Part shown: positions 27,560 to 28,806 of the stretch, piece by piece
Position numbering within the stretch: the stretch's first letter is position 1
Layout of the letters: each line of letters starts with the position of its first letter
NCBI RefSeq assembly: GCF_000026545.1
Contig: NC_011601.1
Length of the DNA stretch: 64,000 bases
Reading direction: 5' to 3' (one strand)
From: Escherichia coli O127:H6 str. E2348/69
GTDB taxonomy: Bacteria > Pseudomonadota > Gammaproteobacteria > Enterobacterales > Enterobacteriaceae
Notes under the pieces: generated by a model
The model's input: the letters and a program-made list of their open reading frames with translations, nothing else
Told to the model about the DNA's origin: nothing
Databases searched by the model: none
Program-made: the position numbers and the translations under genes

Positions 27560-28806
27560 ATGACTGATCAATCAGAAAAAAACACTCTGCATTTTGGGGT
27601 GTTATGGTTATAGCCGGTACAGTAATTGGCGGTGGGATGTTTGCTTTACCTGTTGACCTTGCCGGAGCCTGGTTTTTTTGGGGCGCTTTTATTCTTATTA
27701 TCGCCTGGTTTTCAATGTTACATTCAGGGCTATTATTATTAGAAGCAAACTTAAATTATCCCGTCGGATCCAGTTTTAACACCATCACCAAAGATTTAAT
27801 CGGTAACACCTGGAACATTATCAGCGGTATTACCGTTGCCTTCGTTCTCTATATCCTCACTTATGCCTATATCTCTGCTAATGGTGCGATCATTAGTGAA
27901 ACGATATCAATGAATTTGGGCTATCACGCTAATCCACGTATTGTCGGGATCTGCACTGCCATTTTCGTTGCCAGCGTATTGTGGATAAGCTCGTTAGCCG
28001 CCAGTCGTATTACCTCGTTGTTCCTCGGGTTGAAGATTATCTCCTTTGTGATCGTGTTTGGTTCTTTCTTCTTCCAGGTCGATTACTCCATTCTGCGCGA
28101 TGCCACCAGCACCACTGCGGGAACGTCTTACTTCCCGTATATCTTTATGGCTTTGCCGGTGTGTCTGGCGTCATTTGGTTTCCACGGCAATATTCCCAGC
28201 CTGATTATTTGCTATGGCAAAAAGAAAGACAAACTAATCAAAAGCGTGGTTTTCGGTTCGCTGCTGGCGCTGGTGATTTATCTCTTCTGGCTCTATTGCA
28301 CGATGGGGAATATCCCGCGAGAAAGCTTTAAGGCGATAATCTCCTCAGGCGGCAACGTTGATTCGCTGGTGAAATCGTTCCTCGGCACCAAACAGCACGG
28401 CATTATCGAGTTTTGCCTGCTGGTGTTCTCCAACTTAGCTGTTGCCAGTTCGTTCTTTGGTGTCACGCTGGGGTTGTTCGATTATCTGGCGGATCTGTTT
28501 AAGATTGATAACTCCCACGGCGGGCGTTTCAAAACCGTGCTGTTAACCTTCCTGCCACCTGCTTTGTTGTATCTGATCTTCCCGAACGGCTTCATTTACG
28601 GGATCGGCGGTGCCGGACTGTGTGCCACCATCTGGGCGGTAATAATTCCTGCTGTACTGGCAATCAAAGCCCGCAAGAAGTTTCCCAATCAGATGTTCAC
28701 GGTCTGGGGCGGCAATCTTATTCCGGCGATTGTCATTCTCTTTGGCATAACCGTAATTTTATGCTGGTTCGGTAACGTCTTTAACGTGTTACCTAAATTT
28801 GGCTAA
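27560..28806 (+). pseudogene. tnaB: low-affinity tryptophan permease tnaB with a -1 frameshift after codon 7; the intact downstream ORF 27604..28806 may be expressed from an internal ATG
   Basis: The ATG at 27560 gives MTDQSEKNTLHFGVLWL then a stop at 27611; the ORF-track frame starts at 27604 with MVIAGTVIGGGMFALP..., which I recall as TnaB residues 16 onward. Confidence 0.8.

What the first reader, a model, noticed from the sequence alone, without database searches (positions are those of the whole stretch)
27560..27613. tnaB start region carries a -1 frameshift; permease may be inactive or N-terminally truncated
The ATG at 27560 with a plausible RBS (AAAGGTGG) encodes MTDQSEKNTLHFGVLWL and then hits TAG at 27611. 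The long ORF for the rest of TnaB is in another frame, beginning at the ATG at 27604 (MVIAGTVIGGG...), which I recall as corresponding to TnaB residue 16. The shift maps to the A7 run GAAAAAAAC (27575..27583), consistent with a 1-bp deletion. Either tnaB is a pseudogene here, or a 400-aa protein lacking the first 15 residues is made by reinitiation; a GGGGTG Shine-Dalgarno-like sequence sits 6 nt upstream of the internal ATG. A homopolymer sequencing error is also possible.
Basis: partly seen in the sequence, partly recalled or inferred. Interest (0 to 1): 0.5.

Follow-up and report, generated by a model that had tools for sequence, protein, structure and literature searches.

The report
Frameshifted tnaB in EPEC E2348/69
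The tryptophan-importer gene tnaB of the classic diarrhoea strain E. coli E2348/69 really has lost one base from a run of A's near its start, a defect already flagged in public annotation, so the cell can at best make a version lacking the first 15 amino acids.

Summary
The window is 100% identical over 64 kb to E. coli O127:H6 E2348/69. Its tnaB has A7 (27576-27582) where about 1,100 genomes carrying the same allele type (ATCC 11775, Nissle 1917) have A8. Translation from the normal ATG (27560) stops after 17 codons at TAG 27611-27613. The remaining 400 codons (27604-28806) are intact and begin at the Met that is residue 16 of normal TnaB.

It is not a sequencing error. Three complete E2348/69 assemblies, the CDS record CAS11568.1 and near-identical isolates of the clone all carry it. 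RefSeq already marks the gene "frameshifted", so this is known.

The protein outcome remains open. The internal ATG has a strong Shine-Dalgarno-like GGGGUG, and the short ORF's stop lies 7 nt past it, which favours coupled reinitiation. That product would lack a conserved KHSxFWG segment and 5 of the 12 residues of helix TM1a. Recoding back to full length should be rare, because A7 is too short and A_AAA_AAC is a poor shift site in E. coli.

A 2011 paper I could not read reports TnaB-dependent phenotypes in EPEC, presumably this strain, which hints at residual function.

Best reading: a real clonal frameshift giving a hypomorph or a null. Interest is low to moderate.

The parts
25758..25832 (+). 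tnaC leader peptide gene (operon context)
   Evidence: RefSeq annotation of the identical E2348/69 sequence
26053..27468 (+). tnaA tryptophanase, intact (WP_001295247.1)
27480..27508 (+). Perfect 10-bp inverted repeat (AGAGTGGCTA / TAGCCACTCT) in the tnaA-tnaB spacer; also present in K-12
27548..27555 (+). Native tnaB Shine-Dalgarno-like AAAGGTGG, 4 nt before ATG 27560
   Evidence: duplex with the 16S 3' end, dG -7.7 kcal/mol
27560..27613 (+). Residual 17-codon ORF from the native tnaB start (MTDQSEKNTLHFGVLWL, then TAG)
27576..27582 (+). A7 run, the site of the 1-bp deletion (A8 in intact genes of the same allele type; A7+G in K-12). In frame it reads as the heptamer A_AAA_AAC.
27581..27603 (+). 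Predicted local RNA hairpin (AACACUCU / GGGGUGUU, about -6.9 kcal/mol) that would sequester the internal Shine-Dalgarno-like element until a ribosome translating the 17-codon ORF opens it. Prediction only; the wider region has no significant z-score.
27596..27601 (+). Shine-Dalgarno-like GGGGTG (codons W13-G14-V15 of intact TnaB), pairing with 16S CACCUC
   Evidence: dG -8.6 kcal/mol, at least as strong as the native site
27604..28806 (+). 400-aa ORF equal to TnaB residues 16-415, intact. ATG 27604 is the first start codon in this frame after the UGA at 27565.
   Evidence: The exact product is on record as CAS11568.1 and others.

Best explanation
This is a genuine 1-bp deletion (A8 to A7) in tnaB, fixed in the E2348/69 clone. 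It is of the kind expected from slipped-strand mispairing at a homopolymer during replication.

Shown:
- Ribosomes starting at the native ATG 27560 shift frame at codon 8 and terminate at TAG 27611-27613, so full-length 415-aa TnaB is not encoded.

Inferred:
- Some terminating ribosomes reinitiate at ATG 27604. That ATG lies 7 nt upstream of the stop and is preceded by a strong Shine-Dalgarno-like GGGGUG. The element is otherwise predicted to sit in a small hairpin, which translation of the short ORF would open.
- The product would be TnaB lacking residues 1-15. It would lose the basic cytoplasmic tail and 5 of the 12 residues of helix TM1a, including the conserved KHSxFWG segment.
- I therefore expect a weakened permease (a hypomorph) rather than a normal one.
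- Mtr and AroP still import tryptophan, which explains why the strain remains indole-positive either way.
- Recoding back to full length, by -1 ribosomal slippage on A_AAA_AAC or by RNA polymerase adding an A, would regenerate exactly wild-type TnaB. It should contribute very little.
For: Real and clonal:
- The window is identical to E2348/69 over 64,000 nt.
- A7 is present in three complete assemblies.
- The exact 400-aa product was seen on 73 contigs and in 155 index blocks, including the CDS record CAS11568.1.
- Of six fetched loci, all at least 99.93% identical to the window, five have A7 and one has A6.
- PGAP flags the gene as 'frameshifted'.

Homopolymer origin:
- The only difference from ATCC 11775 in 132 columns is one A in the run.

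Reinitiation is plausible:
- GGGGUG pairs with the anti-Shine-Dalgarno sequence at -8.6 kcal/mol, against -7.7 for the native site, with a similar 4-nt core spacing.
- The stop overlaps the region just 3' of the restart codon.
- A hairpin covers the Shine-Dalgarno-like element.
- ATG 27604 is the first start codon in the long frame.

The rest of the gene is undamaged:
- Against ATCC 11775 there are 13 synonymous and 3 non-synonymous codon differences. Only R222K is unique to this strain.

Likely impairment:
- K8-H-S-x-F-W-G-V/I precedes an invariant M16 in enterobacterial TnaB.
- 102 of 105 diverse full-length family members have at least 8 residues before the M16 position.
- The AlphaFold model (pLDDT 93.4) puts TM1a at residues 11-22 and the GG break at 23-24, on an APC/LeuT-type fold.

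Hints of residual function:
- A review summarises Bhatt et al. [quoted passage not shown]
- That laboratory's EPEC strain in a later paper is E2348/69.
- tnaB mRNA is detected in E2348/69.

Recoding should be minor:
- E. coli RNA polymerase needs more than 7 A's to bypass an indel detectably (PMC6260861).
- A_AAA_AAC is much less shift-prone than A_AAA_AAG in E. coli (PMC5009743).
Against: - No direct evidence here that the truncated protein is made, inserted into the membrane or active.
- The lost segment is conserved, and almost no natural homologue starts at this position. A dead protein is therefore quite possible.
- Ribosomes reading through the internal start in another frame could occlude it rather than feed it.
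- The absence of further decay says little, because the clone is very young: 0-2 SNPs in 4.2 kb among its members.
- Indole production does not discriminate. Three permeases are redundant, and a tnaB deletion is cited as lowering indole by only about 20%.
- I could not read Bhatt et al. 2011. Its strain is inferred, not read. Its tnaB phenotype might reflect effects on the tnaA message rather than loss of transport.
Confidence: 0.5

Rival explanations
1. tnaB is a plain null pseudogene. The frameshift abolishes TnaB, and any product started at Met16 is not made in useful amounts or is misfolded and degraded. E2348/69 then relies on Mtr and AroP for tryptophan uptake.
For: - PGAP calls it a frameshifted pseudogene.
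- The truncation removes a conserved segment and 5 of the 12 TM1a residues.
- 102 of 105 homologues keep at least 8 residues before this point.
- tnaB loss has a precedent: IS5 disrupts it in K-12 W3110.
- Indole positivity is compatible with a null.
Against: - The restart context is good.
- The published title and a review summary imply a TnaB-dependent phenotype in EPEC.
- There are no secondary lesions in the 400 codons, although this is weak evidence given the clone's youth.
Confidence: 0.38
2. Function is kept mainly by recoding. A fraction of ribosomes slip -1 on A_AAA_AAC, or RNA polymerase inserts an extra A in the A7 run. Either event regenerates exactly wild-type 415-aa TnaB.
For: - The heptamer A_AAA_AAC is in the correct frame, and a -1 slip there restores ...SEKKHSAFWGVM... 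exactly (my reading of the frames; frame offset checked).
- Rescue of frameshifted genes by slippage at A/T runs is documented (PMC1088944; PMC4256274 listed).
Against: - A7 is below the length at which E. coli RNA polymerase slips detectably on A runs. Selection against such runs only appears at about 9 nt.
- A_AAA_AAC is a poor shift site in E. coli.
- There is no properly spaced stimulator: the only predicted hairpin overlaps the heptamer.
- The arrangement is not conserved outside this clone.
Confidence: 0.06
3. The A7 is a homopolymer sequencing or assembly artefact, and the strain really has an intact A8 tnaB.
For: - Homopolymer indels are common errors.
- Two unrelated assemblies with A7 are suspect: UID2309220013 also has the essential gene rnpA 'frameshifted' within the same 40 kb.
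- One draft of the clone shows A6.
Against: - Three independent complete E2348/69 assemblies agree, as does the 400-aa CDS record CAS11568.1.
- Several other near-identical isolates and a metagenome contig also agree.
Confidence: 0.02
4. The A run is a reversible phase-variation switch (A7 to A8 and back) that turns tryptophan uptake off and on within populations.
For: - Length changes at the run recur in unrelated backgrounds. A7 occurs in GPEC1031 and UID2309220013, which differ from the window by 1-2% in flanking DNA.
- A6G occurs in 2 records with the K-12-type allele.
Against: - The variants are very rare: 5 of about 1,113 records and 2 of about 3,516.
- Some of these are probably assembly errors.
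- All fetched members of the E2348/69 clone are 'off', none A8.
- An 8-nt run is short for a contingency locus.
Confidence: 0.03

Closest known systems
Intact E. coli tnaB (b3709, NP_418165.1; allele WP_000132074.1 in ATCC 11775), the low-affinity tryptophan:H+ symporter of the tnaCAB operon
   Same: - Same locus and operon order: mnmE, tnaC, tnaA, tnaB, mdtL.
- Residues 16-415 differ from the ATCC 11775 protein at 3 positions and from K-12 at 3 positions.
   Different: - One A is missing from the run at codons 6-8, so the native start yields only a 17-aa peptide.
- Residues 1-15 cannot be joined to the rest of the protein without recoding.
tnaB::IS5 in E. coli K-12 W3110
   Same: A natural or laboratory-lineage loss of tnaB in an otherwise indole-producing E. 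coli with intact tnaA.
   Different: W3110's lesion is an IS5 insertion that splits the gene irreversibly. Here a single-base homopolymer deletion leaves a complete 400-codon ORF with a usable restart codon.
Frameshifted genes partly rescued by slippage at A/T runs (the E. coli example in Baranov et al. 2005; Citrobacter rodentium tssM)
   Same: An indel in or next to a homopolymer A run within a gene annotated as a pseudogene. In principle slippage can restore the frame.
   Different: Documented cases use runs of about 9 or more. This run has 7 A's, below the threshold reported for E. coli RNA polymerase.
Translational coupling by termination-reinitiation at overlapping stop and start codons in bacterial operons (established knowledge)
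   Same: An upstream ORF's stop lies within a few nucleotides of a downstream AUG that has its own Shine-Dalgarno-like element, and that element is partly buried in structure.
   Different: The arrangement here is an accident of a frameshift inside one gene, not an evolved junction between two genes, and it is untested.

Membership tests
TnaB / Trp_Tyr_perm (Pfam PF03222; hydroxy/aromatic amino acid permease family) | Sequence homology to the family over the whole permease core | tested here: met
   The 400-aa product is 99% identical to E. coli TnaB. PF03222 is recorded for it and for its homologues.
TnaB / Trp_Tyr_perm (Pfam PF03222; hydroxy/aromatic amino acid permease family) | Position as third gene of the tnaC-tnaA-tnaB operon | tested here: met
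   tnaC is at 25758-25832, tnaA at 26053-27468 and tnaB at 27560-28806, all on the + strand.
TnaB / Trp_Tyr_perm (Pfam PF03222; hydroxy/aromatic amino acid permease family) | Uninterrupted full-length reading frame (about 415 aa) including the N-terminal tail and complete TM1a | tested here: not met
   The frame breaks at the A7 run, with a stop at 27611-27613. TM1a spans residues 11-22 in the model of the intact protein.
TnaB / Trp_Tyr_perm (Pfam PF03222; hydroxy/aromatic amino acid permease family) | Tryptophan transport activity | not testable with these tools
   This needs uptake assays. There is only indirect literature.
Frameshift pseudogene from homopolymer slippage | Indel confined to a mononucleotide run relative to intact orthologues, producing a premature stop | tested here: met
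   A8 to A7 is the only change in 132 aligned columns. Only 5 of about 1,113 same-type records have A7.
Frameshift pseudogene from homopolymer slippage | Reproducible in independent sequence determinations (not an artefact) | tested here: met
   Three complete assemblies, CAS11568.1 and other isolates of the clone agree.
Frameshift pseudogene from homopolymer slippage | Actual loss of gene function | not testable with these tools
   The sequence allows a Met16-initiated product. No functional data are accessible.
Programmed -1 ribosomal frameshift site | Slippery heptamer X_XXY_YYZ in the zero frame | tested here: met
   GA|A AAA AAC gives A_AAA_AAC at 27577-27583 in the frame of ATG 27560. 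It is a weak site in E. coli.
Programmed -1 ribosomal frameshift site | Properly spaced stimulator (upstream Shine-Dalgarno-like element or a downstream structure 5-9 nt away) and conservation of the two-frame arrangement in relatives | tested here: not met
   The only predicted hairpin overlaps the heptamer. The arrangement is confined to this clone.
Transcriptional slippage site | A/T run long enough for RNA polymerase slippage (about 9 nt; more than 7 A for E. coli RNA polymerase) | tested here: not met
   The run is 7 A. Thresholds are from PMC1088944 and PMC6260861.
Phase-variable contingency locus | Frequent on/off length variants of the repeat among and within isolates | tested here: not met
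   Variants occur in 5 of about 1,113 and 2 of about 3,516 records, and some are suspect. Within-population variation was not testable.
Termination-reinitiation (translational coupling) | Upstream stop within a few nt of a downstream start that has a Shine-Dalgarno-like element | tested here: met
   TAG 27611-27613 lies against ATG 27604, and GGGGUG pairs at -8.6 kcal/mol.
Termination-reinitiation (translational coupling) | Downstream expression depends on upstream translation | not testable with these tools
   This needs reporter fusions with start-codon mutants.

The most novel reading that the evidence does not exclude
The deletion may be an adaptive 'leaky' lesion in the EPEC O127:H6 clone. 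It would remove full-strength TnaB but leave a low level of activity, through a Met16-initiated protein made by coupled reinitiation plus rare -1 slippage that restores the wild-type protein. That would turn down tryptophan import and indole signalling, which feeds into LEE virulence regulation.

If so, it would explain why a gene annotated as a pseudogene still gives a published TnaB-dependent phenotype in EPEC, presumably this strain. It would also show that the conserved first half of TM1a is not essential in this permease family.
Probability: 0.1. Interest if true: 0.45.

Novelty: already known. Interest (0 to 1): 0.22.

Why it matters
E2348/69 is the reference EPEC strain, and its tnaCAB operon and indole output are used to study virulence regulation and killing of C. 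elegans. Those papers describe TnaB as an ordinary permease. RefSeq marks the gene as frameshifted. In the searchable literature I found no paper that mentions the lesion.

Whether the strain has no TnaB, a crippled TnaB or a normal amount affects three things:
- how tnaB mutant phenotypes, tryptophan-dependent induction and indole measurements in this strain are interpreted;
- whether results transfer to other EPEC;
- whether metabolic models should include the reaction.

Beyond that, it is an ordinary strain-specific homopolymer frameshift.

Tried and rejected
1. A 47-nt megablast query, designed so that every 28-mer spans GA7C, was meant to count A7 genomes exactly. It returned nothing, probably because the low-complexity filter masks the run. 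I used 131-133-nt queries instead and read off the 100% identity rows.
2. I tried to read Bhatt et al. 2011 (PMC3165518 and its DOI) and the E2348/69 genome paper (PMC2612414). Neither is held. The key functional evidence therefore rests on a title, reference lists and one review's summary.
3. Literature searches for tnaB with frameshift, pseudogene or E2348 found no discussion of this lesion.
4. PDB sequence search found no solved relative of TnaB. I used an AlphaFold model and a fold search instead.
5. I considered that Met16 might be the true start of normal TnaB, which would make the frameshift irrelevant. I rejected this for three reasons: residues 8-15 are conserved as protein across genera, 102 of 105 family members extend at least 8 residues further, and TM1a begins at residue 11 in the model.
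6. I considered using the lack of further decay in the 400 codons as evidence of selection. I rejected it as uninformative because the clone is too young.
7. I considered indole positivity as evidence of TnaB function. I rejected it because Mtr and AroP are redundant with TnaB.
8. Folding of 27540-27680 gave no significant overall structure (z = 0.81). The small hairpin is a prediction only.
9. An accession look-up for CP091384 failed because the record is not in the collection.

Full report
**1. What is in the sequence**

- tnaA ends at 27468.
- A 91-nt spacer follows. It contains a perfect 10-bp inverted repeat at 27480-27508 and the Shine-Dalgarno-like AAAGGTGG at 27548-27555.
- ATG 27560 opens an ORF that reads MTDQSEKNTLHFGVLWL and stops at TAG 27611-27613.
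- A run of seven A's occupies 27576-27582.
- In another frame, ATG 27604 opens a 400-codon ORF ending at 28806. It is the first start codon after an in-frame UGA at 27565.

The only inaccuracy concerns GGGGTG. It sits at 27596-27601, so its 3' end is 2 nt from the ATG and its GGGG core is 4 nt away, not 6 nt.

**2. Where the window comes from**

The whole 64,000-nt window is identical, base for base, to NZ_LT827011.1 positions 4044443-4108442. That record is E. coli O127:H6 EPEC E2348/69. The 5.3 kb around tnaB is also identical to the E2348/69 assembly CP059840.2.

**3. Is it a frameshift relative to normal tnaB?**

Yes.

- K-12 and ATCC 11775 TnaB are 415 aa and read MTDQ(A/S)EKKHSAFWGV-M16-VIAGT. 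The 400-aa ORF is therefore residues 16-415.
- In an alignment of 132 columns around the start, the window differs from ATCC 11775 by a single A: GA8C against GA7C.
- K-12 has GA7G-C at this place, which is in frame.
- Of about 1,113 complete-genome records carrying the ATCC 11775/Nissle-type allele, only five have the A7 sequence. Three of these are E2348/69 assemblies (CP059840.2, LT827011.1, LT903847.1). The other two are GPEC1031 and UID2309220013.
- The analogous one-A deletion on the K-12-type allele occurs in 2 of about 3,516 records.
- NCBI's pipeline annotates tnaB as a 'frameshifted' pseudogene in all five A7 records.

**4. Error or real?**

It is real in E2348/69.

- Three complete assemblies agree.
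- The exact 400-aa product is on record under CAS11568.1. I take this to be the CDS from the first E2348/69 genome record; that is my inference from the accession series. It is named 'low affinity tryptophan permease' there, so those annotators started the gene at the internal ATG.
- The same protein was seen on 73 contigs and in 155 index blocks.
- Six places were fetched. They include an independent NCBI assembly (UFZD01000005.1), two draft genomes and a metagenome contig, and all are at least 99.93% identical to the window. Five have A7 and one draft has A6.

The two unrelated strains with A7 differ from the window by 1-2% in flanking DNA and carry different tnaB haplotypes. Their A7 is therefore either an independent event or an assembly error. 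UID2309220013 also has the essential rnpA gene 'frameshifted' within the same 40 kb, which points to indel errors in that assembly. GPEC1031 shows no other frameshift in the 27 kb examined.

**5. State of the rest of the gene**

The 400 codons are intact.

- Against ATCC 11775 there are 13 synonymous and 3 non-synonymous codon differences.
- Against K-12 there are 51 synonymous and 3 non-synonymous differences.
- Only R222K is peculiar to this strain.

This does not tell us that selection is maintained, because members of the clone differ by only 0-2 SNPs in 4.2 kb. The lesion is too young to have accumulated further decay.

**6. Can a protein be made from ATG 27604?**

The context is favourable.

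- GGGGUG pairs with the CACCUC of the 16S rRNA 3' end at -8.6 kcal/mol. The native AAGGUGG pairs at -7.7. Both leave about 4 nt between the core and the AUG.
- The stop of the 17-codon ORF lies 7 nt downstream of the AUG. This geometry is typical of termination-reinitiation (established knowledge of translational coupling).
- A predicted hairpin at 27581-27603 (AACACUCU/GGGGUGUU, about -6.9 kcal/mol) would bury the Shine-Dalgarno-like element. A ribosome translating the short ORF would open it.

This hairpin is a prediction only. The region as a whole folds no better than shuffled sequence (z = 0.81). None of this shows that reinitiation actually happens.

**7. Would the truncated protein work?**

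That is doubtful but not excluded.

- In enterobacterial TnaB, residues 2-7 vary freely, but K8-H-S-x-F-W-G-V/I and M16 are conserved.
- Among 105 diverse full-length family representatives (27-46% identical), 102 have at least 8 residues before the M16 position. The usual number is 10-11, and they typically include a basic residue and an 'xLGS' motif. Only three start at or just after the M16 position, and these may be mis-called starts.
- An AlphaFold model of the intact protein (pLDDT 93.4, pTM 0.92) shows residues 1-10 unstructured, helix TM1a at 11-22, the GG break at 23-24 and TM1b at 25-33.
- The model matches APC/LeuT-fold amino-acid transporters such as BasC, AdiC, LAT1, ApcT and LeuT, with TM-scores of 0.63-0.76.

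Starting at Met16 therefore removes the basic tail and 5 of the 12 TM1a residues. In this fold TM1a forms part of the cytoplasmic gate (established knowledge), so reduced or altered function is the reasonable expectation.

**8. Could full-length TnaB be restored by recoding?**

The long frame is -1 relative to ATG 27560. In the zero frame the run reads as the heptamer A_AAA_AAC. A -1 slip there, or an extra A added by RNA polymerase, would regenerate exactly the wild-type sequence ...SEKKHSAFWGVM... (my reading).

Three published results argue that this is rare:
- E. coli RNA polymerase needs at least 7 T's, and more than that many A's, to bypass an indel detectably (PMC6260861).
- Genome-wide avoidance of slippery runs appears at about 9 nt (PMC1088944).

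In addition, no well-spaced stimulator is present. I expect this route to contribute little.

**9. What the literature says about this strain**

- E2348/69 is indole-positive, and its tnaC, tnaA and tnaB transcripts are measurable (PMC5748587).
- It secretes enough indole to kill C. elegans, as MG1655 does (PMC3553163).
- This does not prove TnaB function. E. coli has three tryptophan permeases, and a tnaB deletion is cited as lowering indole by only about 20% (PMC11091664).
[quoted passage not shown] A review summarises it as showing the tnaCAB operon, including TnaB, to be essential for EPEC killing of worms.
- That laboratory's EPEC strain in a later paper is E2348/69. That the 2011 study used the same strain is my inference.
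- I could not obtain the 2011 paper, so I do not know how the mutant was made or complemented.
- None of the searchable papers mentions the frameshift.
- Loss of tnaB has a precedent: K-12 W3110 carries IS5 in tnaB (noted as a strain difference in PMC3229490).

**10. Verdict**

The lesion is a real, clonally fixed A8 to A7 deletion. It is not a sequencing error, and public annotation already records it.

| Outcome | Probability |
|---|---|
| Some Met16-initiated TnaB is made by coupled reinitiation, giving a hypomorph | about 0.5 |
| Plain null | about 0.38 |
| Recoding to full length as the main source of function | about 0.06 |
| Phase variation | about 0.03 |
| Sequencing or assembly artefact | about 0.02 |

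It is an ordinary kind of mutation. Its interest is practical: the reference EPEC strain used for tryptophanase and indole work has a damaged tnaB that the experimental literature appears not to have taken into account.

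Noticed in passing
window 7623-10329: dgoD (galactonate dehydratase) is split by an ISEc13 (IS4-like) insertion. The two halves are annotated as partial pseudogenes flanking the transposase gene. dgoD is intact in UID2309220013.
   Followed up: no
window 35386-36108 (- strand): yieK (glucosamine-6-phosphate deaminase-like) is annotated as a pseudogene with an internal stop in E2348/69. It is intact in W3110, GPEC1031 and UID2309220013.
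   Followed up: no
window 35305-35385, between cbrB and yieK: K-12 W3110 has cbrC between cbrB and yieK. The window and the two other strains of this allele type go straight from cbrB to yieK.
   Followed up: no
window 27480-27508: There is a perfect 10-bp inverted repeat with a 9-nt loop (AGAGTGGCTA...TAGCCACTCT) in the tnaA-tnaB spacer, also present in K-12. It may be an mRNA processing or stability hairpin; this is untested.
   Followed up: partly
L010 (CP091384.1), locus 1-654: This genome is identical to the window from 26758 onward, but an IS3-family transposase gene replaces the upstream part of tnaA. It appears to be an E2348/69-clone derivative with tnaA disrupted as well.
   Followed up: partly
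L011 (AIEZ01000032.1), locus about 1470-1480: This draft genome of the same clone shows A6 instead of A7 in the tnaB run. It is either a second deletion or a homopolymer error in the draft.
   Followed up: no
L012 (AKYH01000011.1), locus 1-1460: In this draft of the same clone the tnaA product is called as 503 aa, running to within 40 nt of the tnaB internal start. One indel relative to the window may be the cause; that link is my inference. It is probably a draft error.
   Followed up: no
L017 (UID2309220013), locus 14379-14737: The essential gene rnpA is annotated 'frameshifted'. This suggests the assembly contains indel errors and makes its tnaB A7 unreliable.
   Followed up: partly
L003/L016 (GPEC1031), between tnaB and mdtL: There is an extra 127 bp or so in the tnaB-mdtL spacer relative to the window. 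Its nature was not examined.
   Followed up: no
L015 (K-12 W3110), locus 11535-16640: W3110 carries two IS5 copies in the tna operon: one inside tnaB and one between tnaC and tnaA.
   Followed up: no
protein cluster: The 90%-identity cluster that holds TnaB (415 aa) also lists several 391-aa MdtL proteins as members. These are unrelated in sequence, so this looks like a database clustering oddity, perhaps seeded by a fused tnaB-mdtL gene call.
   Followed up: no
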